Assembly (NCBI GenBank): GCA_017441845.1
Contig: JAFRVB010000005.1
Span: forward strand, 22,150 to 86,149
Direction: 5' to 3'
DNA length: 64,000 nt
Source: Bacilli bacterium
GTDB taxonomy: Bacteria > Bacillota_I > Bacilli_A > RF39 > UBA660
A model generated the notes under the pieces. The model did no database searches, was not told the origin of the DNA, and was given only the letters and a program-made list of their open reading frames with translations. Shown here in pieces: positions 7,737-63,630 of this stretch (positions within the stretch are counted from its first letter, which is position 1; every line of letters starts with the position of its first letter). Position numbers and translations under genes: made by a program.

Positions 7737-7813
<77 letters not shown>

Positions 7814-7818
7814 TATAT

Positions 7819-7895
7819 GCCTCAATAGCTCAGTTGGTTAGAGCACTTGACTGTTAATCAAGGGGTCCTAGGTTCAAGTCCTAGTTGGGGCGCCA
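7819..7895 (+). tRNA. tRNA-Asn (anticodon GTT)
   Basis: Acceptor GCCTCAA/TTGGGGC; anticodon loop CTGTTAA; CCA end. Confidence 0.85.
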
Positions 7896-7903
7896 TTTTA
7901 TTT

Positions 7904-7980
7904 GGCGAGTTGGTGAAGCGGCTTAACACACTGCCCTTTCACGGCAGCATTCACGGATTCGAATTCCGTACTCGTCACCA
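7904..7980 (+). tRNA. tRNA-Glu (anticodon TTC)
   Basis: Anticodon stem CTGCC/GGCAG with loop CTTTCAC; T-loop TTCGAAT; CCA end; resembles Bacillus tRNA-Glu. Confidence 0.8.
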
Positions 7981-7985
7981 TTTGT

Positions 7986-8004
7986 TTATTAATCCCGAGA
8001 AAGG
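7986..8004 (+). terminator. Hairpin followed by a T-run downstream of tRNA-Glu
   Basis: cccgagaaagggatttttt. Confidence 0.5.
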
Positions 8005-8055
8005 GATTTTTTATTGACATTTAAGAGCTTTTTATGTCATACTATATATGCAGTC

Positions 8056-8147
8056 GGAGCAGTACTCAAGAGGCTGAAGAGGACAGTTTGCTAAACTGTT
8101 AGATCGGGTATACTGGTGCGAGGGTTCGAATCCCTCCTGCTCCGCCA
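8056..8147 (+). tRNA. tRNA-Ser (anticodon GCT), class II with a long variable arm
   Basis: Acceptor GGAGCAG/CTGCTCC; anticodon loop TTGCTAA; long extra arm; CCA end; a TTGACA promoter-like box lies just upstream. Confidence 0.8.
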
Positions 8148-9970: not shown

Positions 9971-10027
9971 TTGCTATAGTAGAGAGAAACCGAAATTTAT
10001 GGTATACTAAAGTGAGGAGTGATATTT

Positions 10028-34903: not shown

Positions 34904-34946
34904 TAGACACATTGTTGTTTAAAATAGATTGATAGGAGGGTTACGG

Positions 34947-36398: not shown

Positions 36399-36452
36399 TC
36401 TTTTCTTTTTTTATGATCTGTGGTATAATATACGGCAATCGGAGGGGTTATT

Positions 36453-37151
36453 ATGAGAAATAGATTATGGAAGATAATTAATCTATTAGTAATAATATTA
36501 GTTGTATTTACTTTTTATTTTAATCGTACTGTTGAAGTTAAATCTATTGATAATAATAAAACTGTTATTATAGATAAAATAGATAATAAGAGTAAAGATA
36601 TTAATATTAAAGAATTAAGAAAACAGTATCATAATAATGATATTATGGCTTATATTGAGATACCTGGTGTAACTAAGAGTATGGTTCTTCAAAGTAGTAA
36701 TAATGATTATTATTTAAATCATGATGTTAATAAAAAAGAAGATATTAAAGGTACTGTTGTTTTAGATTTTAGAAATAAAATAAATGATAAAAAACTATTA
36801 TTATATGGACATAGTGGTAAAGAGAAAGATTTACCTTTCTTGAAACTTAATAATTATGTAAAAAAAGATTATTGGGAAAAACATAATACAATTAACTTAT
36901 ATACATTAGATGGTAAAAAAGAATATAAGATATTTTCATCTTATATAGAGACTAATGATTATGATTATGTTAACTTAAAGAGTTTTAATGGGCTTAGTTG
37001 GTATGAACATATTAATAAATTAAAAAATAAATCTTATTATAATACAGATGTTAAATTAGATAAGAATGATAAAATAATTATTTTACAGACATGTAGTATT
37101 AATAATCAGGGTTATCAAAAATATCATTTAGTAATTGGTAAAGAAGTATAA
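36453..37151 (+). CDS. srtB: Class B sortase (SrtB-like)
   Basis: N-terminal TM; LYGHSG (His); IILQTCS (TLxTC catalytic Cys); 232-aa size; a TGtGGTATAAT promoter-like element lies upstream. Confidence 0.75.
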   Translation: MRNRLWKIINLLVIILVVFTFYFNRTVEVKSIDNNKTVIIDKIDNKSKDINIKELRKQYHNNDIMAYIEIPGVTKSMVLQSSNNDYYLNHDVNKKEDIKGTVVLDFRNKINDKKLLLYGHSGKEKDLPFLKLNNYVKKDYWEKHNTINLYTLDGKKEYKIFSSYIETNDYDYVNLKSFNGLSWYEHINKLKNKSYYNTDVKLDKNDKIIILQTCSINNQGYQKYHLVIGKEV

Positions 37152-39852: not shown

Positions 39853-39929
39853 GTCTGCGTAGCTCAGCTGGATAGAGCAATCGCCTTCTAAGCGATCGGT
39901 CAGGCGTTCGAATCGCCTCGCGGACACCA
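39853..39929 (+). tRNA. tRNA-Arg (anticodon TCT)
   Basis: Acceptor GTCTGCG/CGCGGAC; anticodon loop CTTCTAA; T-loop TTCGAAT; CCA end. Confidence 0.8.
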
Positions 39930-40038: not shown

Positions 40039-42093
40039 ATGAAGATAGTTTTACAAGATGGTTATAAAGATTGTGGAGTTAGTTCACTTCTTTCAATCAT
40101 TAGATATTATGGAGGAGATATCTCTAAAGAAGTATTAAGGGAGATGACTAATACTAATAAAGATGGTGTTAATGCTTTAAATTTAATTAATTCAGCTAAA
40201 GAGTTAGGTTTTGATGCTTATGGTGTTAATGGTGAGATAGGGTCTCTTACTAAAGAAGATTTACCTTGTATAGCTCATACTATTATCAATAAGAGTTTAA
40301 AACATTTTATAGTAATTTATTCAATAGATGAGTCTAAAGATAAAATAACTATTATGAATCCAGAATATGGTAAAAAAGTAATAAGTTTTTCTGAATTTAA
40401 CTTGATAAGTACCCATAACTATATAATCTTAAAACCTATTAAGAAGATACCTGTATTTAAAATTAATACTTTTATTATTGATAATATTATTTCTTTTATT
40501 AAAAAGAATGTTTTAATAGTACTATTAATACTTCTATTAACTATAATCTATTTTATATTAAATATTTTAGTAGCTTTTCATTTTAAATATTTAATTAATT
40601 ATTCTATTAATTTTAATATTAGTGAAAATCTATTTATAATTAGTTATTTTATATTAATATTATTCTTATTTAGAGAAGTATATTTTCTCTTTAGAAACAT
40701 ATTATCTATTAAATTATTCTCTATATTTGATTATTCTATTACTAATAAAGTATTTGAACAGATACTTTTCTTACCATTTAATTATTATAAGAATAGATCT
40801 TCAGGAGAAATAATAAATATTATTAAAGACTTAGGTATTATAAGAGATTATTATTCTAATTTTATTATTTATTTTATTACTGATTTTATATCTATTATTA
40901 TCTTTGGTATTTTTATGTTTAATATTAGTAATAAAATAACTTTATTTGTGTTTATATATTTTATTATGATGATTATTTTGTTTATAGTAAGTAAAAAGTA
41001 TTTTGAAAATAAAATAATCAAATTAAAGAAAATAGAAGATAGAGTAAATACTAAGTTAGTTGAAGGTATAAGTAATTCTCTTACTTTAAAGAACACTCAT
41101 TCTGAGAAAAGATTTGTTGATGAATTTTCTTCTAAATATAATTATTATTTAAATTATAGTTATAAATATCTTAGAAGTAATTTTATTTATAATAGTCTTA
41201 AATCTATTGTGAATAATATATTAATTGTACTTATATTTTTAATAGGTAGTTATTATGTTATTAAGGGAGATTTATTATTAATAGATTTATTTTTGTATGA
41301 GATATTTTTTAATTATTTTAATACTAGTAGTAATCGTATTATTAATTTTATAGGTAATTATAATGATTATAATATCTCTAAAAGAAGAGTAGATGATCTA
41401 TTTAATATAAAAAGAGAATACTTCTCTAATTCATATTATTATTTACCTCATAATATGATGGGTAATATTAAGATTAATAATTTATATTATAAGATTGGGA
41501 ATAATACTTTATTTAATAGTTGTAGTTTAAAGATTAATCAAGGAGAAAAGATATTAATAATAGGTAAAAGTGGTAGTGGGAAATCTACTTTAATGAAGAT
41601 ATTGATGAGATATGTATTAATTCCTTATGGAATGGTTAGTATTAATGATATAGATATTAATCATTATCATTTAGATTCTATCCGAAGTAATATATGTTAT
41701 GTAAGTAATAATGAATATTTATTCTTTGATAATATTTATAATAATATATGTTTATATAAAGATTATTCTAAAGAAGAATATGATCAAGTTAAAAATATTT
41801 GTTTAATAGATTTTTGTACTGATAAAGATATCTGTGAAGAAGGAGGAATTAATTTTAGTAGTGGGGAAAGACAAAGAATAATTTTAGCTCGTAGTATTAT
41901 TAAAAATAGTAATATTTATATCTTTGATGAAGCTCTTAATCAGATAGATATTAATAAAGAGAAAAAGATACTTGATAATATATTTAATTTATATAAAGAT
42001 AAAACAATTATAGTAATTAGTCATCGTAATAATAATAAAAAATTATTTGATAGATGTATTGAATTAAAGAATGGGGGTTTTTATGAGAGATAG
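40039..42093 (+). CDS. Bacteriocin/competence-peptide-type ABC transporter with an N-terminal C39 peptidase domain (LagD/ComA family)
   Basis: C39 motif QDGYKDCGVSSLLSIIRYYG; TM core; Walker A GKSGSGKST; degenerate signature FSSGERQR; Walker B IYIFDEA; extremely Ile/Asn/Tyr-rich. Confidence 0.7.
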   Translation: MKIVLQDGYKDCGVSSLLSIIRYYGGDISKEVLREMTNTNKDGVNALNLINSAKELGFDAYGVNGEIGSLTKEDLPCIAHTIINKSLKHFIVIYSIDESKDKITIMNPEYGKKVISFSEFNLISTHNYIILKPIKKIPVFKINTFIIDNIISFIKKNVLIVLLILLLTIIYFILNILVAFHFKYLINYSINFNISENLFIISYFILILFLFREVYFLFRNILSIKLFSIFDYSITNKVFEQILFLPFNYYKNRSSGEIINIIKDLGIIRDYYSNFIIYFITDFISIIIFGIFMFNISNKITLFVFIYFIMMIILFIVSKKYFENKIIKLKKIEDRVNTKLVEGISNSLTLKNTHSEKRFVDEFSSKYNYYLNYSYKYLRSNFIYNSLKSIVNNILIVLIFLIGSYYVIKGDLLLIDLFLYEIFFNYFNTSSNRIINFIGNYNDYNISKRRVDDLFNIKREYFSNSYYYLPHNMMGNIKINNLYYKIGNNTLFNSCSLKINQGEKILIIGKSGSGKSTLMKILMRYVLIPYGMVSINDIDINHYHLDSIRSNICYVSNNEYLFFDNIYNNICLYKDYSKEEYDQVKNICLIDFCTDKDICEEGGINFSSGERQRIILARSIIKNSNIYIFDEALNQIDINKEKKILDNIFNLYKDKTIIVISHRNNNKKLFDRCIELKNGGFYER

Positions 42094-42469
42094 ATTTTAT
42101 ATTAATTTTGGTATATTTATATTAATTATATTAACTAGTATTTTGGTAGTATTTAGTTATACTTATAAGATTAAATATTATCATTCTATTAATATGATAT
42201 ATATGTCTGATAATAAATATGATTTATTAGTAGATAATAAAGAATTAAAATTAATTAGAAATAATAAAAGTATTTATACTGATGATAATAGGTATGATTA
42301 TAAGATTATTAAGTATAATAAAAATATTATTCATAGAGATAAATATTATCATGAATTAGTTATTGAAATTAATAAGAAAAATAAATATAAAACTAATGAT
42401 ATAATTACTGGAAGTATTATTAGTAAAAGAATTAGACTTATAAATATCTTTAGAAGTGTTTATAGTTGA
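42083..42469 (+). CDS. Small membrane-anchored protein (possible truncated accessory protein)
   Basis: Overlaps the end of the ABC gene; one TM; very AT-rich. Confidence 0.35.
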   Translation: MRDRFYINFGIFILIILTSILVVFSYTYKIKYYHSINMIYMSDNKYDLLVDNKELKLIRNNKSIYTDDNRYDYKIIKYNKNIIHRDKYYHELVIEINKKNKYKTNDIITGSIISKRIRLINIFRSVYS

Positions 42470-43194
42470 AAATTAATAAGAAAAATGGTATTATAAGACT
42501 ACTTTTTGGAGTGATGAATATGTTTAATATTAAAGATTATTTATTAGAAAAAACATTTAAACAACAACAATATGATAATGAACTATGTTTTATAGTTAGT
42601 TATTGGTTTGATGATTTATTAGTCGATGAAAGATGTTTAGAGAATAATGAAGATAGATATAATGCGATGTATAACGGAAAAGAATATTATATTTATTTTA
42701 GTGATAATAAATTTGGATTTACTTTGATACCTCAAAGTGAAGATATCTTTAATGGAGATTTTGATGATGTGATTACTTTTAGTAAAGATAATAAATCAAT
42801 TAATTTAGAAATTAAAAATAAAAAGAATAATATTTATACTGATACTAATTATAATTTTACTCTAGAAGAATTTAACAATACTGTGAAAGGTTTTTGTAAT
42901 TACAGAGAATTTAAAGATGAAGATAACAGTATTTATGATTTTTATATTAAGAGTGATAAAGAACCATATTATTTCATTAACCATTATTTAATTAATGGAG
43001 ATGGATATTGGTATAGATCTGTTATTAAGAGAAGTGAAACTCAAGAAAATATAAAAGTATTTGATAGTAATAATAGAAATAGAAGTGAAAAGATTAATTA
43101 TTTAGAGAAAGCTAATGATATTAATATTCCAATGATTAGTGAAATGACTTATGATTTGAGTAAGAGAACTGCTCATAAGAAATTATCATTGTAA
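42466..43194 (+). CDS. Hypothetical protein
   Basis: ORF with no recognised motifs; very AT-rich. Confidence 0.35.
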   Translation: MKINKKNGIIRLLFGVMNMFNIKDYLLEKTFKQQQYDNELCFIVSYWFDDLLVDERCLENNEDRYNAMYNGKEYYIYFSDNKFGFTLIPQSEDIFNGDFDDVITFSKDNKSINLEIKNKKNNIYTDTNYNFTLEEFNNTVKGFCNYREFKDEDNSIYDFYIKSDKEPYYFINHYLINGDGYWYRSVIKRSETQENIKVFDSNNRNRSEKINYLEKANDINIPMISEMTYDLSKRTAHKKLSL

Positions 43195-43227
43195 TTATTT
43201 AAATATTTTTGAGAGGATGGTGATATT

Positions 43228-44172
43228 ATGTTAAAGATTTATAAGACAACAGCTGTTGAAAAGAAAATTAAAAAAGCTAAACGTATTAGTGTTGATTGTT
43301 GGATTGATATGGTATCACCAACATCAGAAGAAATAGATAGAGTAATTAAAGTTACTGAGATAGATAAAGATCTTATATTAAAGATGTTAGATGAAGAAGA
43401 AACTCCGAGAATTGAAGAAGATGATAATGCGATTTTAGTAGTAGTAGATACTCCTTATCTAGAAGAAGATGATGGTCATTTTACTTATAATACTAGACCA
43501 TTAGGTATTATTATTACTAATAATAATTATGTAATTACTGTTTCACCTTCAGGTACTAATGTTTTAAATGATTTTAAAAAGAATAGAGTTAAGAACTTTA
43601 GAACAGCGAAGAAAACTAGATTTTTAATACAAATATTATTATATACATCTTCTAGTTATCAAAGAGCTTTAAAGATAGTAAATAGAAAAATTGAAATTAA
43701 AGAAGAAACTTTAGTTAAATCTACTTCTAATAAAGATTTGATAGATATGTTAGATTTAGAAAAAACATTAGTATATTTTATTACTTCTTTAAAAGCTAAT
43801 GATTTGGTTTTAAAGAAACTTAGTAAAGGAATTGTATTACCTTTATATGATGAAGATGAAGATTTATTACAAGATGCGATTATTGAGAATAAACAAGCTA
43901 TAGAACAATCAGAAATCTATAGAAACATCTTGGGTAGTATTACAGATACTTATGCGACAATAGTATCTAATAATTTAAATCAAGTGATGAAATTCTTGGC
44001 TGGAGCAACAATCATTCTTTCTATACCTACAATGATATATTCATTTATGGGTATGAATGTTAAATTAGGGGCACTAGCTACTCATCCTTATGCAGCATTA
44101 GGTATTTTCTTAGGAAGTTTAGTAATTGCGATTATTGCGGTTATTTGGTTACTGAGAAGAAATATGTTATAG
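43228..44172 (+). CDS. corA: CorA-family divalent-cation transporter
   Basis: C-terminal 2 TM with FMGMN (GMN) motif. Confidence 0.75.
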   Translation: MLKIYKTTAVEKKIKKAKRISVDCWIDMVSPTSEEIDRVIKVTEIDKDLILKMLDEEETPRIEEDDNAILVVVDTPYLEEDDGHFTYNTRPLGIIITNNNYVITVSPSGTNVLNDFKKNRVKNFRTAKKTRFLIQILLYTSSSYQRALKIVNRKIEIKEETLVKSTSNKDLIDMLDLEKTLVYFITSLKANDLVLKKLSKGIVLPLYDEDEDLLQDAIIENKQAIEQSEIYRNILGSITDTYATIVSNNLNQVMKFLAGATIILSIPTMIYSFMGMNVKLGALATHPYAALGIFLGSLVIAIIAVIWLLRRNML

Positions 44173-44191
44173 TAATTATTGAGGTGGTTCG

Positions 44192-45028
44192 ATGCATGTA
44201 TTAGAGTTTACAAATATTTGGAGAGATTATTATAATTCTATTATAGGAGAATTTAATGATTTCTTATTTAAATATACTAATAAAAAAGAAGGATATTCTA
44301 TACTTCAATTTCAAACAGCTCAAGAGAATTATCTTTTAGGAGTATATTTTGATTTTCTAGCTAAATTAAATGAAAAAGATTCTTCATTAATAGATCAAGA
44401 AGAAGTAAAAGATTTACTTGCTTATGATTTTTGTAGAATAGATGATGAAGAATTAACTACAGATAAATATATTGAATTTAGTGAATTTTATTTATATAGA
44501 CCTATTAATTCTTATACAGAAGATAGATATAATTTATTTAAAAAAGATTGCAATTATCTACTTATGAATAAAGAAGGTTATTGTAATAGAGTTAGTTATT
44601 TATTAAATAATAATAATGCTTTAGCTAATGCTTATACTAATTATTTATTTGATGATGTAGAAAAACAAAAATACTTATATAAAAGAACTACTAAAAGATT
44701 AAATGATATTTCTAATGGAGATATTATTAAAGATGAAGATTATCAATTACTTATAGAGAATTATAAAAGATTATATCTAAAGAAAAGAGTATATGAAGAT
44801 ATTGTTTCATTACGTAGTTCTGATATAGATTTAGATTTGTTAGGTTATAATTTCAATTATTTAAATGATGTTATTAATAATAGTTTTTCTCCATATCATG
44901 GAGAAATAGAATGTAGGGAAGAATATATTCCTATAGCGATATTAGAAGATTATTTGGAATTAAGTGATAAACTTGATAATGAATATAAAATGATTTCTAC
45001 TAAAAAGAATAAAGTATTAAAAAAATAA
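44192..45028 (+). CDS. Hypothetical protein
   Basis: ORF with a gaggtgg RBS; no recognised motifs. Confidence 0.4.
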   Translation: MHVLEFTNIWRDYYNSIIGEFNDFLFKYTNKKEGYSILQFQTAQENYLLGVYFDFLAKLNEKDSSLIDQEEVKDLLAYDFCRIDDEELTTDKYIEFSEFYLYRPINSYTEDRYNLFKKDCNYLLMNKEGYCNRVSYLLNNNNALANAYTNYLFDDVEKQKYLYKRTTKRLNDISNGDIIKDEDYQLLIENYKRLYLKKRVYEDIVSLRSSDIDLDLLGYNFNYLNDVINNSFSPYHGEIECREEYIPIAILEDYLELSDKLDNEYKMISTKKNKVLKK

Positions 45029-45078
45029 GACTCATAAGAGTCTTTTTATATGATATAATCATTCTAGAAGGTGATTAA

Positions 45079-45777
45079 ATGTACAAGATTGGTATGTTTG
45101 ATTCTGGAATAGGTGGATTAAACGTCTTAGAAGAAATAAAGAAATTAATACCTAATGAAAATATTATTTATTATCAAGATTCTTCAAATAATCCTTATGG
45201 TGAAAAGACTGATGAAGAGTTATGGACTATTGTTTCAAATATAGTTGAATATTTAATAGATAAAGGTGTTAAAGAGATAATAGTAGCTTGTAATACTGCG
45301 ACTACTAGATGTATTAAAAGATTAAGAGAAGAGTATCCTGAAATAATATTTATTGGTACTGAACCTGCTATAAAAGTAGCTACTGATAATAATTATAAAA
45401 ATATTATTCTTTTAGGTACTCCAGGTACTATTAATAGTGATAGATTACATGAATTAGTTAATTGTAATCAAAGTGATGAAAATATCTATTTGATTGAATG
45501 TAGTGGTTTGGCTAATGCTATAGAGAATCATGATAATGATACAATTAATAGTTTATTACATAATTATTTAGATGAATATAAAGATAAAAATATAGATTCA
45601 GTAGTACTAGGATGTACTCATTATGGATATATAAAAGATCAAATATTAAATATCCTTGGAAATATAAAACTTATAGATGGTAATCTCGGAGTAGCGAAAC
45701 AAGCTAAACGCATGTTGGAAGAGAATAATTTACTGGATGGTACTGAAGAGGGGAAAATAGAAATAGTAGAAAGATAA
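45079..45777 (+). CDS. murI: Glutamate racemase
   Basis: DSGIGGL, ACNTAT and GCTHY motifs. Confidence 0.8.
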   Translation: MYKIGMFDSGIGGLNVLEEIKKLIPNENIIYYQDSSNNPYGEKTDEELWTIVSNIVEYLIDKGVKEIIVACNTATTRCIKRLREEYPEIIFIGTEPAIKVATDNNYKNIILLGTPGTINSDRLHELVNCNQSDENIYLIECSGLANAIENHDNDTINSLLHNYLDEYKDKNIDSVVLGCTHYGYIKDQILNILGNIKLIDGNLGVAKQAKRMLEENNLLDGTEEGKIEIVER

Positions 45778-45795
45778 GATACTGGGAGGTATATT

Positions 45796-47895
45796 ATGAG
45801 CAAATTTTTTAGAAATACTATTAATTATTTGTTAATAATGTTTTTAGTAATAATATTTATATATTGCTTATTTCAAAATCAAGATCTTAACTTTTTGGGT
45901 AATTCTTCGTATGTTGTATTTTTTCTTACTATTATAATTTCTTTTTTGCTTTTCTTTTTTATTCATCTTTTGTTTAAGAGAATTGATAAGAGTAAGCATT
46001 TAAAATTAATTAGAATTATAGCTATGTTATTTATTATAGTTATACAGGTAGTTATGATTTCTATTTTTGATGTTCAACAGGTTACTGATAGTTATTCTGT
46101 TGAAGATCATGCTTATCCTATAGCAGTTGGTCTTGCGAATAAAGTTGATCATTCTCTTGATGATTATTTTGTTGTTCACTCTAATAATAATTTTGATTTA
46201 GTATTAAACATTATTTTAATAAAGATTATTAAGTTTATTAAAATATTAAAAGTAAATGTAGGATTAGAAATATTTGCTTTGTTATGTATAGATATTTCTT
46301 TAATACTTCTTTATAAATTAGCAAGAGAGTTTTTAGATGAGAAAACTTCTACTAAAATATTAGTTTTAAATATACTTAATCCTTTAAATTATTTTATGGT
46401 TTTTTGGACATATACATGTGCTTATTCTGTTCCTTTTGTGATAGGTATTTTGTATTTAGCAGTAAAGCTCAAGAAATCAGATAAAAATATTAAAACTGTT
46501 ATTTATTCTTGTTTGTTTGCTTTGGTTGCGATAATATGTTTTTATTTAAGACCTGTTATTGTGATACCTTTAATAGCAATATTAATATGTTTCTTTATGT
46601 TTAAAGAAAAAGGACATTGGAAGAAATATTTGATGTCATTTAGTATTATATTGATTGTTTGTTTAGGAGTAGGAGCTTTAATCAATAATAGTTTTAATCG
46701 TTTAATACCTCAAGATAAAAATGATTGTTTTCCAGTTACTCATTACTTAATGATGGGATTACATAATAGAGGTGGTTGGAATTCAAGAGATGTTATTTAT
46801 ACTCAATCTCGTGCGACTACTAAGGAAAAGAAAGCAGCTAATATTAAAGAGATAAAGAGAACATTAAAAGAATATAAAGTATCTGGTCTTTTGGCTCATG
46901 AAATTGATAAATTACCAGTTACTTGGGCAAATGGTAGTTCTAGATATTATAACTTTCTTTCTCAAGATAGAAATACTAATAATTCACTAAATAAATGGGT
47001 GATAGGTGATAAGAAAGATTTAGTGGCTATATCTTGTAATGCATATAGATTACTTATTGTTTTATTTGCAATCTTTGGTACTTTTGTAATTATTAGAAAT
47101 AAAAAATATGATAAGTTATTTCTTGTTACCTTAACTCTTTTTGGAGCAATGTTATTTTATCTATTATGGGAATCAAAAGATGTTTATAGTTATCCATTCT
47201 TATCTTTATTAGGATTTATTAGTTGTTTAGGTTTATGTGATAAATTGAAAGATACTACTAAATTAGATAAGAGTGTTTATGTTTTAACAGCTATTTTGAT
47301 ATGTACTATTTTGTTTGCTTTAAAATATAATTTAACTATGGCTAATAGTAATATGAAAGATTATAGATTAAATGTATCACCAGCTTCAAATTATGGTAAT
47401 GTGGACAATCTGTTATTAAAAGATACTAAGATTACACAAAGTTTTGATATTGAAGGTAAATTTAATATAGTAGCTATATATGCTAATAAGATAAAAGAAA
47501 ATGATAATTTCTATAAGATTAAGTTATATAAAAATAATAAATTTGTTACAGAATATATAAAATCTTATAAAGATATCTATGAAAATTATATAATGTTAAA
47601 ATTACCTTCTGGTGTAGGTACTACGGGTAAATATAAATTAGAGATATCATCTGCTGATAATAATAGAAATAGAGTAGATAATCTTCGTTGGAAGTTTGTA
47701 ACTTCTCATGGATTAGATAATTATAAAGGAAAACTTAATATAGATAATAAGAGTAATTTAGGAGATTTATCAATTAAAGTATATAATAAATCTATTACTA
47801 GATATATGAGTTCTAAATTGTTCTTCTTACTATATATAGTAGTAATAGTATTACTATGTTTAGAATATAGAAATTTATATAAAAAAGAAAAATAA
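45796..47895 (+). CDS. Large polytopic membrane protein (possible membrane glycosyltransferase or polymerase)
   Basis: About 12 TM segments in the N-terminal half and a large C-terminal extracytoplasmic domain; no secure motif. Confidence 0.4.
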   Translation: MSKFFRNTINYLLIMFLVIIFIYCLFQNQDLNFLGNSSYVVFFLTIIISFLLFFFIHLLFKRIDKSKHLKLIRIIAMLFIIVIQVVMISIFDVQQVTDSYSVEDHAYPIAVGLANKVDHSLDDYFVVHSNNNFDLVLNIILIKIIKFIKILKVNVGLEIFALLCIDISLILLYKLAREFLDEKTSTKILVLNILNPLNYFMVFWTYTCAYSVPFVIGILYLAVKLKKSDKNIKTVIYSCLFALVAIICFYLRPVIVIPLIAILICFFMFKEKGHWKKYLMSFSIILIVCLGVGALINNSFNRLIPQDKNDCFPVTHYLMMGLHNRGGWNSRDVIYTQSRATTKEKKAANIKEIKRTLKEYKVSGLLAHEIDKLPVTWANGSSRYYNFLSQDRNTNNSLNKWVIGDKKDLVAISCNAYRLLIVLFAIFGTFVIIRNKKYDKLFLVTLTLFGAMLFYLLWESKDVYSYPFLSLLGFISCLGLCDKLKDTTKLDKSVYVLTAILICTILFALKYNLTMANSNMKDYRLNVSPASNYGNVDNLLLKDTKITQSFDIEGKFNIVAIYANKIKENDNFYKIKLYKNNKFVTEYIKSYKDIYENYIMLKLPSGVGTTGKYKLEISSADNNRNRVDNLRWKFVTSHGLDNYKGKLNIDNKSNLGDLSIKVYNKSITRYMSSKLFFLLYIVVIVLLCLEYRNLYKKEK

Positions 47896-47949
47896 AAATT
47901 CTTTTAATTGCTATAAAAATGTTTTATAATTTTATTATAGGAGGAAGAT

Positions 47950-49113
47950 ATGAAGAATAAAAATAGTGCTGGTTCCATATTATTATTTCCTATTCTTTTA
48001 ATTGCCGGTATAGGATTATTATGGTGGAATGAAGGAAATTATGTTAAAACAGCAAGTGCTATTAAAGAAGCACAAAGTGATTATTTAGAAATTAAAGATG
48101 CTAAATATGATGCTAAAAATGACAAGAAAGTTGTTGTTGTCAGTGGTCCAATAGTGGTTTCATCTGAAGCAGTTGATCAACAGTTTAAAATAAAGGATAT
48201 GACTGCTATATTAGAAAGAACTGTAGAAATGTATCAATGGGAAGAAGATTGTGATGAGGATAATCATTGTACTTATGAAAAGAAATGGTCTGAAAGTGAG
48301 ATAAGTTCTGCAGGATTTAAATCTGGACATAGTAATCCAAGTATGCCTTATAAGAGCGAAACTTTCTATTCTGATAATGTTACTTTAGGAGATTATAGTT
48401 TATCTAGAAATAATTTAGAGTATTTGAACGCTGATAGTCCATATCAATTAAATCAACAAGATGCTACTAATAATGGTATGACATTATTACAAGATAATAG
48501 ATTGTATAAAGGAAAAGATTTTACTCAACCTGAAATAGGAGATTTATTAGTTTCATTTAGTAAATTCACTTCTGATAAAGTTACAGTATTAGGAGTACAA
48601 AATGGTACTACTGTTACTAAGTTTGTAGGTAAGAGTGGAAAGAAAGTAATGTATACTATGGAAGGTATTCATACTGGAGATGAAATGTTCCAAAAACTTA
48701 TTGACAATAATAAAATGATGACTTGGTTATTAAGATTAGTAGGATGTATTTGTTTAATATGTGCAATTGCTTCTATCTTTGCACCATTAAGATTCTTAAC
48801 TGATCGTATACCTATCTTGGGTGGAATTGTTGGAGGATTAACTGGATTCTTTGCTTTACTTGTAGGATTAGCTCTATCAATTATAGTTATTGCTCTAGCA
48901 TGGTTTGCTTATAGACCTTTAGCAAGTATTATTGCTATAGTAGTAATGGCTGGATTGGTTATCTTATATATTAAGATGAAGGGTAAAAAAGCTATGGATA
49001 ATAAACAAGAGGCTGTAACTACTCAACAAACAGAAACACCACAACAACCAGTAACACCAACTCAAGAGGTACAACCAACAGAAAATGTAGAACAAAAAAA
49101 AGATGAACAATAG
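47950..49113 (+). CDS. Membrane protein (N-terminal TM, a large soluble domain, a C-terminal TM bundle, and a Q/T/P-rich tail)
   Basis: Hydrophobicity pattern only. Confidence 0.4.
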   Translation: MKNKNSAGSILLFPILLIAGIGLLWWNEGNYVKTASAIKEAQSDYLEIKDAKYDAKNDKKVVVVSGPIVVSSEAVDQQFKIKDMTAILERTVEMYQWEEDCDEDNHCTYEKKWSESEISSAGFKSGHSNPSMPYKSETFYSDNVTLGDYSLSRNNLEYLNADSPYQLNQQDATNNGMTLLQDNRLYKGKDFTQPEIGDLLVSFSKFTSDKVTVLGVQNGTTVTKFVGKSGKKVMYTMEGIHTGDEMFQKLIDNNKMMTWLLRLVGCICLICAIASIFAPLRFLTDRIPILGGIVGGLTGFFALLVGLALSIIVIALAWFAYRPLASIIAIVVMAGLVILYIKMKGKKAMDNKQEAVTTQQTETPQQPVTPTQEVQPTENVEQKKDEQ

Positions 49114-49132
49114 TTCATCTTTTTTATATTAA
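49100..49132. terminator. Bidirectional rho-independent terminator between convergent genes
   Basis: agatgaacaatagttcatct flanked by T- and A-runs. Confidence 0.55.
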
Positions 49133-50398
49133 ACTTTTTAATTTTTGACCGGTATTAGTCAGTCTTATTTTTTTGTAAGCTTTTGATTCGATTTGTCTAA
49201 TTCTTTCACGAGTAACACCTCTGTCATTAGCGATTTCTTGTAAAGTATGAGGTATCATATCATAAAAACCATTTCTTTTTAGAATAACTTCTTTTTCATG
49301 ATCTTTTAACACTTCACTTTCATTTATTATCCTAATAATATCATTGAAAGCAACTTTAGATAATATACTATTTTCAGTGTTTTCTTCATCAGGTATTAAT
49401 TCTAAGACAGTTGTTTCACGTGCTTCACCTATAGGGATATCTAGTGAAGTTGAACTAGTCATATAACTAACTTTTTTTAACTCTTGTATTTTTTCAATAT
49501 CTTCATTAAGTTGATTCTTATATAATAATTTAATAATTTCTTTTTGAATATTATTTTTATCGATATTTGGATTTTCTTTTTCTATTGCTTTTATATATGA
49601 GTTCAATTCTTTTTCGTCTAATTCAGCAATCTTTTTATTAAAATCAACCTTATCTGTATATATATATTTAGCAATTTCTTCAATAGAAGGATACTCTCCA
49701 AAGTGATTATAAGAGTATTCTTTTTCAAAGACTTCCATTTTATTAATATGCTCGATTGTATGAATTGGAACTCTAATTGTTTTGGCTGTATCACCAACAC
49801 ATCTACTAACAGCTTGTCTAATCCACCAAGTTGCATATGTAGAGAACTTAAAACCTAATGTTGGATCAAATTTTTCAACAGCTTTCATAAGTCCCACGTT
49901 TCCTTCTTGAATTAAATCTAAGAAATCAACACCTCTTTTATTATATTTTTTAGCAATAGAAATAACTAATCTTAAGTTAGATTCAATTAGTTTATCACGT
50001 GCTTCTTTATCGTTTTCATTTTGATACTTTAAGGCAAGACGTATTTCTTCTTCTGGACTTAATAATTTATTCTTTGTTACTTCACCAAAATATAACGTTA
50101 TAGCGGCATTATTTGTACTAAAAACGTCACTTGTGTCGATATTTTTTGCACTCGCTAATTCACTTTGATCAATTTCTTCAATCTCTTCTAATTCATCTTT
50201 AGTTACATCTATATCTTCATCATCAAAACAAATATCTTCTTTATTTATGCTATTATCATTAAAAATTAAGAATTCATTTATTTCTTCTATTTCTGAATCA
50301 TTAAGATTATATTTAGAAATTAAATCTTCTAACTCTTTTACAGAAATTGTTTCTCTATCACTAAGTATACTTTTAAGTTTTTCTAGTGATTCTTTCAT
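49124..50398 (-). CDS. rpoD: RNA polymerase primary sigma factor (sigma-70/SigA)
   Basis: Region 2 [33 protein letters not shown] and regions 3-4 are recognisable; acidic N-terminal region. Confidence 0.9.
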
Positions 50399-50618
50399 TT
50401 CTTATACCCCCAATAAGTGGACATATTATACCATAAAATCGTTAAAAAGTCAAAGAATTCTTACTATTAAAACTATTTTTTTAGAGTATTATTCTTATGA
50501 AAAACATCTTTTTTAATATAAAAATTTAATATTTAATAACAAGTTTTTTTGAATTATCTTTTTTGGTGATTTGTATTATTTTTGGTATTAATCTAAGATG
50601 ATGATGAAAGGAGGTAAA

Positions 50619-50780
50619 ATGATAAAATTAAATGAAAATGATTTAAGTAATATTAAAGGAGGGATGACAGTTACTGGAGGTATTGGAATAGGTATTGTAG
50701 TTACTGCGGTTATAACATTTTTATCTGGTATTATCAGAGGGTATACTAATCCGGAGGTGTGCAATGTTAAAGGAAATTAA
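50619..50780 (+). CDS. Double-glycine-leader peptide A (candidate class IIb bacteriocin subunit)
   Basis: aaggaggt RBS; leader MIKLNENDLSNIKGG; mature 38 aa, hydrophobic and G-rich (GIGIG) with one Cys. Confidence 0.6.
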   Translation: MIKLNENDLSNIKGGMTVTGGIGIGIVVTAVITFLSGIIRGYTNPEVCNVKGN

Positions 50781-50940
50781 TGATAAAGAATTAGAATCCA
50801 TTGTAGGAGGAAGCGGTTCTATTTCTTCATCAGTAATAAACGCAATAACTAATATCATTAAATTCTTGTATGATACAGGTAGTGGCGTGGGATCTGCGAT
50901 TAGAAGAATTCATGATAAAAATCTATGCCCAACAAAATAG
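50764..50940 (+). CDS. Double-glycine-leader peptide B (candidate second bacteriocin subunit); not in the ORF track because it is under 60 aa
   Basis: ggaggtg RBS; leader MLKEINDKELESIVGG; mature 42 aa with SGSIS/GSGVGS motifs and one Cys; overlaps peptide A by 17 nt; terminator hairpin at about 50943-50965. Confidence 0.6.
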   Translation: MLKEINDKELESIVGGSGSISSSVINAITNIIKFLYDTGSGVGSAIRRIHDKNLCPTK

Positions 50941-51052
50941 GAAGTATTTTACTTCCTTTTTTGTTTTGTCTTTAAAATTAAAGAAAAAAGTTGAATTTTA
51001 AATAAATATTTGCTATACTTTAACTTAGTTAGTGACGAAGGGAGGGATAAAT

Positions 51053-51256
51053 GTGGCTACTAAAGTTGTAGTAAGAGGAAATCTTGATCAAGCTTTGAAG
51101 AAATTTAAGGCAAAAGTTAATAAAGATGGCATCCCTCAAGAGTCTAAAAAACGTGAAGGTTATGATAAACCAGGAGTAAGACGTAGAGCAGCAGAAAAAG
51201 AGGGTAAGAAAAATGCTGCTAGAAGAAATAGAGCAAATAATAGAGATAGAGATTAA
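51053..51256 (+). CDS. rpsU: 30S ribosomal protein S21
   Basis: GTG start after the gaagggaggg RBS; KVVVRGNLDQALKKFK...EGYDKPGVRRR...KKNAARRNR is S21-like. Confidence 0.8.
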   Translation: MATKVVVRGNLDQALKKFKAKVNKDGIPQESKKREGYDKPGVRRRAAEKEGKKNAARRNRANNRDRD

Positions 51257-51328: not shown

Positions 51329-52357
51329 ATGAAGTGTGATAGTTGTGGTAAAACAATTGAAGATGCTAATGCTTTGACATGTCCTTTTTGTAATGCTGAA
51401 TTAAAGTCACCAGAAGAAATAGAAGTTTTGGATGACGAACCAAAAGAAGAATCTGTTCCTGAAGAAACTACTGAAAAAGTAGAGGAATCTACTGAAGAAG
51501 TAGAAGAAGCAAAGGAAGAAAAGGTTGAAGAAGAAGTAGAAGTGAAAGAAGAACCAAAAGTAGAAGAAACTATAGAACCTTCTATTATTTCTAGTGAAGA
51601 AATTTCTATTGACAGTATAGGCGTAGAAAAACCTAAAAAGAAAAAGAATAAAAAGAAAAAAGATAAAGATGCTTCTGAAGAAGAGGAAAATAAAGAGGAA
51701 CCAAAAGAAGAAGTAAAAGAAGAACAAACAGAAGAAAAACCTCAAGAAGAAGAAAAGGTAGAGGAAACTCCTCAAAATGAAGAAAAAGTTCAAGAAGAAC
51801 AAGCAGAAGAAAAATCTAAAGAAGAAGAAAAGGTAGAGGAAATTCCTCAAGAGGAAGTTAAAGAAGAACAAACAGAAGAAAAACCAGCTGAAGAAGAAAA
51901 AACTGATGAAGTTTATGAACCATTTGTTGAAGCAGAAAATGTTGTACCTTTACCACCTAAGAAAACATTAGGTTATAGAATTAAAGATTTCTATCGTAGT
52001 ATGTTTGAAGGTTATGAAAAATTACCTGAAATTAAAGTTGATGATAGAGAGACAAGATTAACTTTAGATAAGATATATGAAAAGACTAGCAAAGAAGCAG
52101 AAGATAAGAAAATTAGTGGTAATGATGTTGCGATAGTATGGTTAGCTTGCTTTGTATTTGCTTTTATAGCGTTCTTTGTACTTACTGCGATATCATTCAT
52201 TATTGACATAATTGTAGGAGATAAGAATAATACATCAATATTGACAGTTATTATTCCTGTATTCCAAATAGGAGTACCTATATTCTTCCTAGCATTTGGA
52301 TGGTTGATAGGTATTGTATACTCTTATATAAAAAGAAATAAAAAAAGAAATAGATAG
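51329..52357 (+). CDS. Zinc-ribbon, acidic-repeat, C-terminal TM protein (hypothetical)
   Basis: N-terminal CxxC...CxxC; about 170 aa of E/K/V-rich repeats (EEKVEE); 2 C-terminal TM segments. Confidence 0.5.
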   Translation: MKCDSCGKTIEDANALTCPFCNAELKSPEEIEVLDDEPKEESVPEETTEKVEESTEEVEEAKEEKVEEEVEVKEEPKVEETIEPSIISSEEISIDSIGVEKPKKKKNKKKKDKDASEEEENKEEPKEEVKEEQTEEKPQEEEKVEETPQNEEKVQEEQAEEKSKEEEKVEEIPQEEVKEEQTEEKPAEEEKTDEVYEPFVEAENVVPLPPKKTLGYRIKDFYRSMFEGYEKLPEIKVDDRETRLTLDKIYEKTSKEAEDKKISGNDVAIVWLACFVFAFIAFFVLTAISFIIDIIVGDKNNTSILTVIIPVFQIGVPIFFLAFGWLIGIVYSYIKRNKKRNR

Positions 52358-61803: not shown

Positions 61804-62439
61804 ATGGCAAGAGTTAAGAATGGAGCAGTTACTAAAGCTCGTCATAAGAAAGTTTTAAAAGCTGCTAAAGGATATACTGGAAGTAAGCATAGATTATATA
61901 AGACAGCTAAAGAACAATTAATGAAGTCTGGTAAATATGCTTATAGAGATAGAAAGAATAGAAAAAGAGATTTCAGAAAATTATGGATTACAAGAATTAA
62001 TGCTGCTTGTAGATTAAATGATATTAGTTATTCTAAATTTATTAATGGTTTAAATAAAGCTGGAGTAGAAGTTAATAGAAAGATGTTATCTGAATTGGCT
62101 ATTAACGATGAAAAAGCATTTAAAGCATTAGTAGATATTAGTAAAAAAGGATTAGATGGAAAAGTTAAAGCTACTGAAGTAGAAGCTACTAATGAAGTAA
62201 CTATTGGTGGTAAGAAAACTACTACTAAGAAAGAAACAGTAAAAAAAGAAATAAAAGAGAAAAAAGAAACTGTTAAGAAAGAAGTAAAAGAAAAGAAAGC
62301 AGAAGTTAAAGCGAAAGTTGAAGAAAAAATTGACTATGCAAAAATGACAGTTGCTGAGTTAAAAGAGGTTGCTAAAAAGAAAAAAATCAGTGTTACTGGT
62401 TTAAAGAAAGCAGAAATAATTGCTGCATTAAAAAAATAA
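61804..62439 (+). CDS. rplT: 50S ribosomal protein L20 with a ~90-aa K/E-rich C-terminal extension
   Basis: L20 core [23 protein letters not shown]...[21 protein letters not shown]; extension ending [31 protein letters not shown]. Confidence 0.85.
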
Positions 62440-62526: not shown

Positions 62527-63630
62527 ATGAGTATTGTATCAATGAATTATTTATTAGAAGCTGGTGTTCACTTCGGACATCAAAAGAGAAGATGGAATCC
62601 TAAGATGAAAGAGTATATTTATACTTCTAGGGATGATATCTATATTATCGATTTACAAAAAGCAGTTAAATGTTTAGAGACTGCTTATGATGCTATGAAA
62701 GAAATAGCTAGTAATGGAGGAAAAGTACTTTTTGTAGGTACTAAGAAACAAGCAGGAGAAGCTGCTAAAGAATGTGCTGAAAGAGTTGGAATGTTCTATG
62801 TTAATACTAGATGGTTAGGTGGAACTTTAACTAACTTCAGAACAATCAGAACAAGAGTTAATAGAATGACTCAAATCGAAAAACAAGAAGAGGACGGAAC
62901 TTTCGCTGCTCTTCCTAAAAAAGAAGTTATTAAAATTAAAAAGGAATATGAAAAATTAGAAAGAAACTTAAGTGGTATCCGTAATATGGAAAAATTACCT
63001 CAAGCTTTAGTTATAGTAGATCCTAAGAAGGAAGAAAATGCTATTAAAGAAGCAAGAGCTTTAGGTATTCCTGTATTTGGTGTAGTAGACACTAACTGTG
63101 ATCCTGATATGGTTGATTATGTTATTCCTGGAAATGATGATGCTGTAAGATCAGTTAAGTTATTATTAGGTGTTTTAACTAATGCAATTGCTGAAGTTAA
63201 TGGTAATGAAGTAATTGAATATGTTAATGAAGAAGATAAAGGTAAAGATACTTCTGAAGACTTTGTAGAAAAAATGGAAGAAGCTAAAGAGAAAGCAGAA
63301 GAAGTAAAAGAAAAAGTTAAGAAAACAGCAAAAAAGGTAAAAGAAAAAGTTGAAGAAGTAAAAGAAAAACCTGAAGTTAAAGAAAAAGTAGCTAAAGCTA
63401 AAGAGAAAGCAGAAGAAGTAAAAGAAAAAGCTACTAAAAAAGCAAAAGAAGTAAAAGAAAAGGTTGAAGAAAAAGTAGAGGAAAAGAAAACAACTAAAAA
63501 AGCAACTAAGAAAGAAGAGAACTTAGCAGATTTAACATTAACTGAACTAAAAGCAAAAGCTAAAGAAGCTGGACTTAAAGGTTATTCAACATTAAAGAAA
63601 GCAGACTTAGTAAAAGCATTAAGTAAATAG
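62527..63630 (+). CDS. rpsB: 30S ribosomal protein S2 with a ~110-aa K/E-rich C-terminal extension
   Basis: S2 core [19 protein letters not shown]...; extension ending [32 protein letters not shown]. Confidence 0.85.

What the first reader, a model, noticed from the sequence alone, without database searches (positions are those of the whole stretch)
50598..50970. Two overlapping, unannotated double-glycine-leader peptides between rpoD and rpsU (candidate two-peptide bacteriocin)
Two small ORFs overlap by 17 nt. Each has its own Shine-Dalgarno sequence and begins with a canonical GG-type leader: MIKLNENDLSNIKGG and MLKEINDKELESIVGG. The predicted mature peptides (38 and 42 aa) are Gly-rich and amphipathic with GxxxG-like motifs (GIGIG, SGSIS, GSGVGS), as in class IIb two-peptide bacteriocins. 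Each carries exactly one Cys, so an intermolecular disulfide is conceivable (this is inference). No immunity gene or transporter is adjacent. The pair is wedged between two housekeeping genes and ends with a strong terminator. The only C39-peptidase exporter in the window lies about 8.5 kb away at 40039-42093.
Basis: partly seen in the sequence, partly recalled or inferred. Interest (0 to 1): 0.72.

Follow-up and report, generated by a model that had tools for sequence, protein, structure and literature searches.

The report
Conserved two-peptide bacteriocin-like secreted pair
Two tiny overlapping genes just upstream of the ribosomal protein S21 gene encode a pair of secreted peptides that look like a two-peptide bacteriocin; they belong to a large, unstudied family inherited together with its dedicated exporter across a clade of uncultured gut Bacilli, and the two peptides may be joined by a disulfide bond.

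Summary
Two real genes, peptide A (50619-50780, 53 aa) and peptide B (50764-50940, 58 aa), overlap by 17 nt. Each has its own Shine-Dalgarno sequence and a double-glycine leader that clears the TIGR01847 cut-off. About 0.02 such ORFs are expected per 64 kb. dN/dS is 0.14-0.28.

In distant relatives the orthologous C39-ABC exporter, a ~130-aa accessory ORF, peptide A and peptide B are contiguous, directly upstream of rpsU. In the window about 8.1 kb of other genes separates exporter and accessory (40039-42469) from the peptides.

Peptide B defines a large uncharacterised family: 436 clusters at 50% identity, from uncultured gut Bacilli such as 'Clostridium sp. CAG:433' and 'Mycoplasma sp. CAG:877'. 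No curated model covers the mature peptide.

Three features are unusual for class IIb. The pair is inherited vertically at a core chromosomal site, with peptide B about as conserved as S21. The window has no immunity gene. Each peptide has one nearly invariant C-terminal Cys, and in the one lineage where B lost it, A lost it too, which suggests an interchain disulfide.

'Unannotated' is wrong: NCBI names both 'bacteriocin'. Antimicrobial activity is untested.

The parts
50566..50579 (+). Conserved upstream block GTGATTTGTATTAT. Probably the -10 region of the peptide operon promoter (inferred).
   Evidence: This is the only conserved non-coding block, apart from the Shine-Dalgarno sequence, in the alignment of four lineages. 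The consensus promoter scan did not call it.
50607..50614 (+). Shine-Dalgarno sequence of peptide A (AAAGGAGG).
   Evidence: GAAAGGAGG is invariant in the four aligned lineages. Sequence read.
50619..50780 (+). Peptide A precursor, 53 aa. The leader is MIKLNENDLSNIKGG (50619-50663). The mature peptide is 38 aa (50664-50777), with a hydrophobic transmembrane-like helix, a G37xxxG41 motif and Cys48.
   Evidence: TIGR01847 at 16.0 bits; lactGbeta_entB at 24.3 bits, sub-threshold; dN/dS 0.14-0.28; mean Kyte-Doolittle hydropathy 2.33 over 19 residues.
50753..50757 (+). Shine-Dalgarno sequence of peptide B (GGAGG), lying inside the peptide A coding region.
   Evidence: Sequence read. It lies 6 nt upstream of the ATG at 50764.
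50764..50940 (+). Peptide B precursor, 58 aa. The leader is MLKEINDKELESIVGG (50764-50811). The mature peptide is 42 aa (50812-50937), an amphipathic helix with invariant G39xxxG43, R47, R48 and Cys55.
   Evidence: TIGR01847 at 19.5 bits; helix 22-50.
50939..50963 (+). Intrinsic terminator: an 8-bp stem (AGGAAGTA...TACTTCCT) followed by a T-run.
   Evidence: It is present in some lineages only.
40039..42093 (+). Peptidase-containing ABC transporter (PCAT) with C39 domain, transmembrane domain and nucleotide-binding domain. It is the predicted processing enzyme and exporter for both peptides.
   Evidence: Peptidase_C39 91.5 bits, ABC_membrane 96, ABC_tran 82; Cys12 and His89 motifs; best model TIGR01193, peptide cleavage/export ABC transporter. 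Its ortholog is adjacent to the peptides in L026, L027, L028, L031, L034, L037 and L039.
42071..42469 (+). Accessory ORF of 128-132 aa, with an N-terminal transmembrane helix and a ~100-aa domain. It overlaps the end of the exporter gene. Its role is unknown: secretion accessory and/or immunity.
   Evidence: hhalign gives 97.7% probability and E = 1.4e-12 against the ORFs that sit between exporter and peptide A in distant lineages. There is no Pfam or PDB hit.
42470..50565 (.). About 8.1 kb of variable intervening genes that separate exporter and accessory from the peptides in this lineage: a 242-aa ORF, CorA, a 278-aa ORF, a racemase, a 699-aa glycosyltransferase-like protein, TMEM43 and a sigma-70 factor on the minus strand. 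This block is not part of the system.
   Evidence: The content differs in L016 and L025, and the block is absent in L026, L027, L028 and others.
50991..51256 (+). rpsU (S21) with its own conserved extended -10 promoter (TTGAAT-N17-TGcTATACT). This is the conserved downstream neighbour, not a functional part of the system.

Best explanation
The locus encodes a class IIb-like two-peptide bacteriocin that belongs to a large, uncharacterised family.

Shown: two overlapping genes under purifying selection encode precursors with double-glycine leaders. They always occur as an A-type/B-type pair. In most lineages they lie directly behind a C39-peptidase ABC exporter, with or without a ~130-aa accessory ORF.

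Inferred: the pair is transcribed from its own promoter and translated in roughly equal amounts, since the overlapping genes each have a Shine-Dalgarno sequence. The exporter at 40039-42093 recognises each leader, cleaves after Gly-Gly and exports the product. This releases a 38-aa hydrophobic peptide A and a 42-aa cationic amphipathic peptide B. The two associate helix to helix through their invariant GxxxG motifs (A G37-G41, B G39-G43) and are probably locked by a disulfide between A-Cys48 and B-Cys55. The heterodimer inserts into the membrane of a target cell, probably through a membrane-protein receptor, and makes it leaky.

In this lineage a block of unrelated genes has been inserted between exporter/accessory and the peptides, so the system is split into two transcription units. 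No dedicated immunity gene is present in the window.
For: Real genes. 0.02 GG-leader ORFs are expected per 64 kb and 2 are observed, adjacent. dN/dS is 0.14-0.28 at dS 0.6-1.1. Both are called as genes in about 27-29 assembly blocks.

Leaders. Both pass TIGR01847. The cleavage dipeptide is GG in 216 of 231 family members and AG in 10. In L031 both partners switched to AG together.

Exporter link. The order ABC-(accessory)-A-B is contiguous in L026, L027, L028, L031, L034, L037 and L039. The window exporter is a full-length ortholog at 42% identity. The accessory ORF is homologous.

Class IIb hallmarks, as listed in PMC2850506. The two genes are adjacent. The leaders are 15-16 residues long. 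The mature peptides are 38 and 42 aa, cationic (+1 and +3), and hydrophobic or amphiphilic. GxxxG is invariant in both. Peptide B is predicted helical. There is a weak hit to lactococcin G-beta/enterocin 1071B.

No modification enzymes, kinases or LytTR regulators occur in the window.

Disulfide. The RR-x6-C spacing holds in 221 of 235 peptide B sequences. Peptide A has Cys in all 14 pairs in which B has it. The single lineage whose B lost Cys (P0150) has an A that also lost it, seen in two samples. No pair is discordant.
Against: Nothing here demonstrates antimicrobial activity, export or cleavage.

No immunity gene lies in or next to the operon in the window, whereas the review says one is always present.

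The distribution is unlike that of typical bacteriocins. The pair is inherited vertically at one chromosomal site, directly upstream of rpsU in 12 of 13 sampled lineages. Peptide B is about as conserved as S21 (61% against 65%) and more conserved than its exporter (42%). No plasmid or phage copies were found.

No curated bacteriocin family matches the mature regions.

The joint Cys loss is a single evolutionary event. These organisms live in a reducing, anaerobic gut, and no thiol oxidoreductase is linked to the locus.
Confidence: 0.6

Rival explanations
1. The pair is a secreted two-peptide factor whose main role is not killing competitors. It could be a physiological or signalling heterodimer, for example an autocrine or kin signal, an envelope or membrane modulator, or a host-directed peptide. 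It would use the same exporter-dependent leader cleavage and would be kept as a core gene by this clade of host-associated Bacilli.
For: Inheritance is vertical at a fixed core site next to rpsU across lineages down to about 40% peptide identity. Peptide B is about as conserved as a ribosomal protein and is under purifying selection. Many lineages, including the window, have no immunity gene. Prevalence is very high, with P0279 in 1842 assembly blocks. No mobile-element copies were found.
Against: No cognate sensor is consistently linked to the locus. The window holds no HPK10 kinase or LytTR regulator, and only L026 and L027 have a hybrid kinase after rpsU. The mature peptides are 38-42 aa with a transmembrane or amphipathic helix and GxxxG motifs, which is typical of pore-forming class II bacteriocins and unlike the 17-27-aa pheromones (established knowledge). 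Widely conserved bacteriocins do exist.
Confidence: 0.25
2. The two peptides are precursors of a post-translationally modified RiPP, for example a two-component lanthipeptide or sactipeptide, rather than an unmodified class II bacteriocin.
For: Peptide B is rich in Ser and Thr and has a Cys. There are weak sub-threshold hits to lantibiotic models: L_biotic_typeA at 17 bits, and the plantaricin C and lacticin 481 families.
Against: Those hits cover only the leader region and fall below the cut-offs. No LanM, LanB, LanC or radical-SAM gene lies in the 64-kb window or next to the module in any of 13 lineages. A single Cys per peptide cannot make the multiple rings typical of such RiPPs.
Confidence: 0.04
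3. The ORFs are chance open reading frames in AT-rich intergenic DNA and have no function.
For: None beyond their small size.
Against: 0.02 are expected against 2 observed. dN/dS is 0.14-0.28. The peptide B family has 436 clusters with invariant motifs. The Shine-Dalgarno sequence is conserved. The pairing with peptide A and with a cognate exporter is conserved throughout.
Confidence: 0.01

Closest known systems
Class IIb (two-peptide, unmodified) bacteriocins, e.g. lactococcin G, enterocin 1071, plantaricin EF/JK (review PMC2850506)
   Same: There are two different peptides from adjacent genes, each with a 15-16-residue double-glycine leader. A dedicated C39-ABC transporter and an accessory protein lie in the same or a nearby operon. 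The mature peptides are 38-42 aa, cationic, hydrophobic or amphiphilic and predicted helical, and each has a GxxxG motif.
   Different: The mature peptides have no sequence similarity above threshold to any curated class IIb family (best is lactGbeta_entB at 24 bits against a cut-off of 37). The operon has no immunity gene. The pair is a vertically inherited core locus next to rpsU, not a strain-variable accessory island or plasmid. Each peptide carries one nearly invariant C-terminal Cys, and the two Cys co-vary, which suggests a covalent heterodimer. The review mentions no cysteine, and my literature search found no disulfide-linked two-peptide bacteriocin.
PCAT (peptidase-containing ABC transporter) substrate systems in general (TIGR01193 bacteriocin_ABC with TIGR01847 leader peptides)
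   Same: The exporter has a C39 domain with catalytic Cys and His, a transmembrane domain and a nucleotide-binding domain. The substrates carry GG leaders.
   Different: The exporter scores below the TIGR01193 cut-off (294 against 524 bits), so it is a divergent member. The accessory protein is about 130 aa with no detectable HlyD/ComB-type domain, whereas the accessory proteins of LcnD/ComB type are about 450 aa (from my own knowledge).
Double-glycine peptide pheromones (ComC, BlpC, PlnA)
   Same: They have a GG leader and are processed by a C39-ABC exporter. Peptide B has a weak ComC Pfam hit at 18.9 bits against a cut-off of 20.4, in the leader only.
   Different: The mature peptides here are twice as long and membrane-active in character, and they come as a hetero-pair. 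No HPK10 histidine kinase or LytTR response regulator is in the window or consistently linked to the locus.
Bacteroidetocins, which are widely conserved GG-leader bacteriocins of Bacteroidetes (recalled from memory, not checked here)
   Same: They are a precedent for a GG-leader bacteriocin family that is highly conserved across many species of a gut clade.
   Different: They are single peptides with an intramolecular disulfide, from a different phylum, and unrelated in sequence.

Membership tests
Class IIb two-peptide bacteriocins | [quoted passage not shown] | tested here: met
   The genes overlap by 17 nt on the same strand. An A-type/B-type pair is present in all 15 pairs examined.
Class IIb two-peptide bacteriocins | Both are made as preforms with a 15-30-residue double-glycine leader | tested here: met
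   The leaders are 15 and 16 residues long. TIGR01847 scores are 16.0 and 19.5 bits against a cut-off of 15.7. GG is found in 216 of 231 family members.
Class IIb two-peptide bacteriocins | Leader cleaved and peptide exported by a dedicated ABC transporter with a C39 peptidase domain, in the same or a nearby operon, usually with an accessory protein | tested here: met
   The gene is present 8.5 kb upstream with intact catalytic motifs. The ortholog is contiguous with the peptides in 7 or more lineages. The accessory ORF is homologous. The cleavage reaction itself cannot be tested here.
Class IIb two-peptide bacteriocins | Mature peptides are cationic, hydrophobic or amphiphilic, helical, and carry GxxxG or GxxxG-like motifs | tested here: met
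   Net charges are +1 and +3. Peptide A has a transmembrane-like segment with mean Kyte-Doolittle hydropathy of 2.33. Peptide B has a helical hydrophobic moment of 1.93. Peptide B models as a helix over residues 22-50. GxxxG is invariant.
Class IIb two-peptide bacteriocins | Immunity gene in the same operon as the two structural genes | tested here: not met
   There is no ORF between peptide B and rpsU; the 112-nt gap holds only the terminator and the rpsU promoter. The window has no homolog of the peptide B-like membrane-anchored third ORF seen in L028, L039/L040 and L043. The 132-aa accessory ORF could serve this role, but that is unproven.
Class IIb two-peptide bacteriocins | [quoted passage not shown] | not testable with these tools
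   This needs synthetic or purified peptides and indicator strains.
Lactococcin G-beta / enterocin 1071B family (NF038034) | Score at or above the curated cut-off of 37 bits | tested here: not met
   Peptide A scores 24.3 bits and peptide B 16.9 bits.
Pfam Bacteriocin_IIc (PF10439) | Score at or above the gathering cut-off of 27.1 bits | tested here: not met
   The scores are 11.9 and 13.8 bits.
GG-leader peptide pheromones (ComC/BlpC/PlnA type) | Linked HPK10-type histidine kinase and LytTR response regulator; short mature peptide of about 17-27 aa | tested here: not met
   No such genes are in the 64-kb window. The mature peptides are 38 and 42 aa. ComC scores 18.9 bits, below the 20.4 cut-off, and only in the leader.
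Two-component lanthipeptides / other RiPPs | Adjacent modification enzyme (LanM, LanB/C, radical SAM) | tested here: not met
   None is found in the window or in the module of any sampled lineage.

The most novel reading that the evidence does not exclude
The two peptides form a covalent, disulfide-linked heterodimer, a type not described among two-peptide bacteriocins. The module of exporter, accessory ORF, peptide A and peptide B is an ancient, vertically inherited core trait of a whole clade of prevalent uncultured gut Bacilli with small genomes (the CAG:433 / CAG:877 / 'Bacilli bacterium' lineages). If so, its conserved role may be something other than, or additional to, strain-level warfare. 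Examples are a clade-wide weapon against other taxa with intrinsic, receptor-based self-immunity, or a self- or host-directed secreted factor.
Probability: 0.25. Interest if true: 0.8.

Novelty: new variant of a known kind. Interest (0 to 1): 0.6.

Why it matters
These organisms are common in human and animal guts. One variant alone appears in 1842 assembly blocks. They are uncultured, and almost nothing is known about how they interact with their neighbours.

A conserved and easily synthesised peptide pair of 38 and 42 aa gives a direct experimental handle on them. The peptides can be made chemically, with or without the disulfide, and tested on gut isolates without culturing the producer.

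If the heterodimer is covalent it would extend the structural range of class II bacteriocins. If the pair really is a core, clade-wide trait without a dedicated immunity gene, it challenges the usual picture of bacteriocins as strain-variable accessory weapons. It would point instead either to receptor-based intrinsic immunity or to a role other than killing.

In practical terms the family could be given its own curated model. At present members are labelled 'hypothetical', 'unknown', or generically 'bacteriocin' when the leader happens to score well.

Tried and rejected
1. Pfam and NCBIfam scans of the peptides and of 10 diverse family members gave only leader-level hits. No model covers a mature region.

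2. The accessory ORF has no Pfam hit and no PDB profile hit. The single-sequence AlphaFold model was poor (pLDDT 58, core below 50), so I ran no fold search. My impression that it resembles a truncated HlyD-type barrel therefore remains untested.

3. The peptide B AlphaFold model, built from 78 sequences, gives only a moderate-confidence single helix. It is too small and simple for a meaningful fold search.

I sampled contexts by exact-protein look-ups instead.

5. Four literature searches found nothing on this family or on a disulfide-linked two-peptide bacteriocin: 'two-peptide bacteriocin' with 'intermolecular disulfide'; 'RF39' with 'bacteriocin'; and the literal motifs GSAIRR, GSSIRR and GYTNPE.

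6. The subfamily with an extra Cys in peptide B (INACTN) was uninformative as a second co-variation test. Its peptide A keeps a single Cys.

7. I considered a pheromone circuit and rejected it, because no kinase or regulator is present. I considered a RiPP precursor and rejected it, because no modification enzymes are present. I rejected chance ORFs.

8. I considered a mobile-element origin. tblastn found no plasmid or phage copies.

9. I considered obligatory co-transcription with rpsU. rpsU has its own conserved promoter in every lineage, and a terminator follows peptide B in the window.

10. The C-terminal 'C + 3 residues' pattern of peptide B (138 of 222 members) looks superficially like a CaaX box. 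Pro at the first position and the partner-Cys co-variation make the disulfide reading more likely, and I did not pursue this.
Full report
OBSERVATION

The window has 27% G+C. On the + strand, between a minus-strand sigma-70 gene (49124-50398) and rpsU (51053-51256), there are two small ORFs. Peptide A runs from 50619 to 50780 and encodes 53 aa: MIKLNENDLSNIKGG|MTVTGGIGIGIVVTAVITFLSGIIRGYTNPEVCNVKGN. Peptide B runs from 50764 to 50940 and encodes 58 aa: MLKEINDKELESIVGG|SGSISSSVINAITNIIKFLYDTGSGVGSAIRRIHDKNLCPTK. They overlap by 17 nt.

Each has its own Shine-Dalgarno sequence: AAAGGAGG at 50607-50614, and GGAGG at 50753-50757. An 8-bp hairpin followed by a T-run lies at 50939-50963, and rpsU has a separate promoter at 50991-51019.

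The finding's start coordinate, 50598, is an upstream in-frame ATG. Gene calls in every assembly, and the invariant GAAAGGAGG in four aligned lineages, place the true start at 50619.

Both leaders pass the curated cut-off of TIGR01847, at 16.0 and 19.5 bits against 15.7. These are the only small ORFs with a GG leader in the 64 kb. Markov-simulated sequence yields 0.02 per window and never two.

ARE THEY GENES?

The exact peptides are called as genes in about 27-29 metagenome assembly blocks, always with the same neighbours. Diverged homologs exist at 66-84% identity, and they keep the GG site, the single Cys and the C-terminal motifs.

Codon-level comparison with the closer relatives gives dN/dS of 0.14-0.28 at dS of 0.6-1.1 for both ORFs. 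Both ORFs are therefore protein-coding and under purifying selection.

THE EXPORTER LINK

The ORF at 40039-42093 is a peptidase-containing ABC transporter. It has Peptidase_C39 at 91.5 bits, ABC_membrane and ABC_tran domains, and the catalytic-type motifs QDGYKDCG and KHFIVIY. Its best NCBIfam model is TIGR01193, the peptide cleavage/export ABC transporter. A 132-aa ORF at 42071-42469 overlaps its end.

In the two most distant GTDB genomes found (L026, an iMGMC mouse-gut Bacilli MAG, and L027, rumen MAG RUG594) the gene order is C39-ABC, ~130-aa ORF, peptide A, peptide B, rpsU. All of these are contiguous or overlapping.

The same contiguous module occurs in:
- the 'Mycoplasma sp. CAG:877' lineage (L028);
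- the 'Clostridium sp. CAG:433' lineage (L037 and L038, without the accessory ORF);
- L039 and L040;
- L031, without the accessory ORF;
- L034, where rpsU does not follow.

The window's exporter aligns at full length with those of L026 and L027 at 42% identity. The 132-aa ORF is homologous to the distant accessory ORFs by hhalign, with 97.7% probability and E = 1.4e-12.

In the window's lineage, and independently with different genes in L025, a block of unrelated genes lies between the accessory ORF and peptide A. In the window this block is about 8.1 kb: a 242-aa ORF, CorA, a 278-aa ORF, a racemase, a glycosyltransferase-like 699-aa protein, TMEM43 and the sigma factor. So the exporter 8.5 kb away is the cognate one, separated from the peptides secondarily.

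THE FAMILY

A profile of peptide B finds 87 clusters at 90% identity. In the exhaustive search it finds 436 clusters at 50% identity with E <= 1e-3, of which 164 have E <= 1e-10. Nearly all are 50-60 aa and match end to end.

Among 235 diverse members:
- G-x3-G-x3-RR is present in 225;
- the C-terminal Cys lies at a fixed RR-x6-C spacing in 221;
- the cleavage dipeptide is GG in 216 and AG in 10.

Peptide A sequences collected from 15 lineages share a hydrophobic helix followed by F.SG(I/V)..G(Y/F/I)(T/A/V).P..C.

No curated Pfam or NCBIfam model covers the mature region; only the leaders hit. tblastn found no plasmid or phage copies. The literature searches found nothing on this family.

MECHANISM

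Against the published definition of class IIb bacteriocins (PMC2850506), the locus meets these features:
- two adjacent genes;
- 15-30-residue GG leaders;
- a dedicated C39-ABC exporter with an accessory protein, in the same or a nearby operon;
- cationic mature peptides that are hydrophobic or amphiphilic, with GxxxG motifs. Peptide A has net charge +1 and a 19-residue segment with mean Kyte-Doolittle hydropathy of 2.33. Peptide B has net charge +3 and a helical hydrophobic moment of 1.93. Peptide B is predicted to form a helix over residues 22-50.

The most likely mechanism is as follows. The two overlapping genes are translated in roughly equal amounts. The exporter cleaves each precursor after Gly-Gly and exports it. 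The two mature peptides then associate helix to helix through their GxxxG motifs and permeabilise a target membrane. All steps after translation are inferred.

DEPARTURES FROM CLASS IIB

(1) No immunity gene. In the window the 112 nt between peptide B and rpsU hold only the terminator and the rpsU promoter. Some other lineages (L028, L039/L040, L043) carry a third small ORF that overlaps the end of peptide B. It has an N-terminal basic and transmembrane anchor and a C-terminal half resembling peptide B. It is a plausible immunity candidate, but the window has no homolog of it.

(2) Vertical, core-site inheritance. In 12 of the 13 sampled lineages the pair lies directly upstream of rpsU-yqeY. 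Between the window and L026/L027, peptide B is 61% identical, compared with 65-67% for S21, 52% for YqeY, 42% for the exporter and 40% for peptide A. rpsU keeps its own extended -10 promoter in every lineage. A terminator after peptide B is present in only some lineages. The linkage to rpsU therefore looks historical rather than regulatory, although read-through in some lineages cannot be excluded.

(3) One conserved Cys in each peptide. Only two of the 235 peptide B sequences lack the C-terminal Cys. One of them (P0148) looks frameshifted. The other (P0150...NNLGPLE) comes from a lineage seen in two independent samples. Its partner peptide A reads ...GFTDPAVDSSG, so the otherwise universal Cys is replaced by Asp. 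Across the 15 pairs examined, 14 have Cys in both peptides, 1 has Cys in neither, and none is discordant. This is a single evolutionary event and so is suggestive, not conclusive. It is nevertheless what an interchain disulfide predicts.

ALTERNATIVES

A pheromone circuit is unlikely. No HPK10 kinase or LytTR regulator is in the window, and the peptides are long and membrane-active in character.

A modified RiPP is unlikely. No modification enzymes occur in the window or in any sampled lineage.

Chance ORFs are excluded.

The serious alternative is that this conserved, clade-wide secreted heterodimer has a role other than killing, or one in addition to it. The evidence here cannot separate that from a conserved bacteriocin with intrinsic immunity.

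CORRECTIONS TO THE FINDING

NCBI already labels both exact sequences 'MAG: bacteriocin [Bacilli bacterium]'. This is a generic name, presumably triggered by the leader model.

The 'rpoD' neighbour is RpoD-like but scores far below the equivalog cut-offs, and it is not a conserved neighbour.

VERDICT

This is a real, conserved two-peptide system with double-glycine leaders and an identifiable cognate exporter. The best reading is a new, uncharacterised variant of class IIb bacteriocins, with a probable interchain disulfide and an unusual core-genome distribution in prevalent uncultured gut Bacilli. The function itself remains untested.

Noticed in passing
L028 10156-10320; L039 8150-8323 (= L040 2614-2787, a called gene); L043 5162-5302: A third small ORF of 46-57 aa overlaps the end of peptide B in three or more lineages. 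It has an N-terminal basic and transmembrane anchor, no GG leader, and a C-terminal half resembling peptide B (e.g. ...YDLGVDIGSNLRYLLKFGHFC). It could be a membrane-anchored mimic that acts as the immunity protein. It is absent from the window, L026, L027 and L037/L038.
   Followed up: partly
It is 45% identical to its L019 counterpart, although S21 is 100% identical between the same two genomes. It is missing at this position in L016. It may not be the primary sigma factor.
   Followed up: partly
window 43228-44172 (+): A CorA Mg2+ transporter gene sits in the block inserted between exporter and peptides, here and in L016. [quoted passage not shown] This is probably a coincidence, and I did not check it.
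   Followed up: no
window 51329-52357 (+): A 342-aa ORF follows rpsU. It has an N-terminal zinc-ribbon-like CxxC...CxxC, a long Glu/Lys-rich low-complexity middle and C-terminal transmembrane helices. It has no Pfam or NCBIfam hit. Its length varies among close relatives (240, 325, 342 and 443 aa).
   Followed up: no
window 61804-62439 and 62527-63630 (+): Ribosomal protein L20 carries a C-terminal SAP domain (211 aa in total). Ribosomal protein S2 carries a long C-terminal extension that ends in a Rho_N-like domain (367 aa in total). These are unusual fusions for these ribosomal proteins.
   Followed up: no
L031 2309-2625, and 10 family members listed: In one subclade both peptide A and peptide B have Ala-Gly instead of Gly-Gly at the cleavage site. 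The two substrates changed together, which implies a matching change in the specificity of the C39 domain.
   Followed up: partly
P0142 (102 aa): This is a natural read-through fusion of an A-type and a B-type precursor in a single ORF. It again shows that the two genes are always adjacent.
   Followed up: no
L026 8108-9922; L027 10626-12446: In the two most distant GTDB relatives, a hybrid histidine kinase/response regulator with a multi-transmembrane N-terminus follows rpsU. It is not seen in other lineages, so it is probably unrelated to the peptide module.
   Followed up: no
window 10019-17683, 28897-34848, 34929-37151, 2978-5128: There are two giant ORFs of 2554 and 1983 aa. There is a SpaA-fold pilin with a sortase gene. 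There is also a DUF285/BspA-type LRR protein ('Mycoplasma protein of unknown function'). This is a large surface-protein repertoire in an otherwise housekeeping region.
   Followed up: no
window 39853-39926 (+): A tRNA gene lies immediately upstream of the exporter gene. A cluster of four tRNA genes lies at 7737-8144.
   Followed up: no
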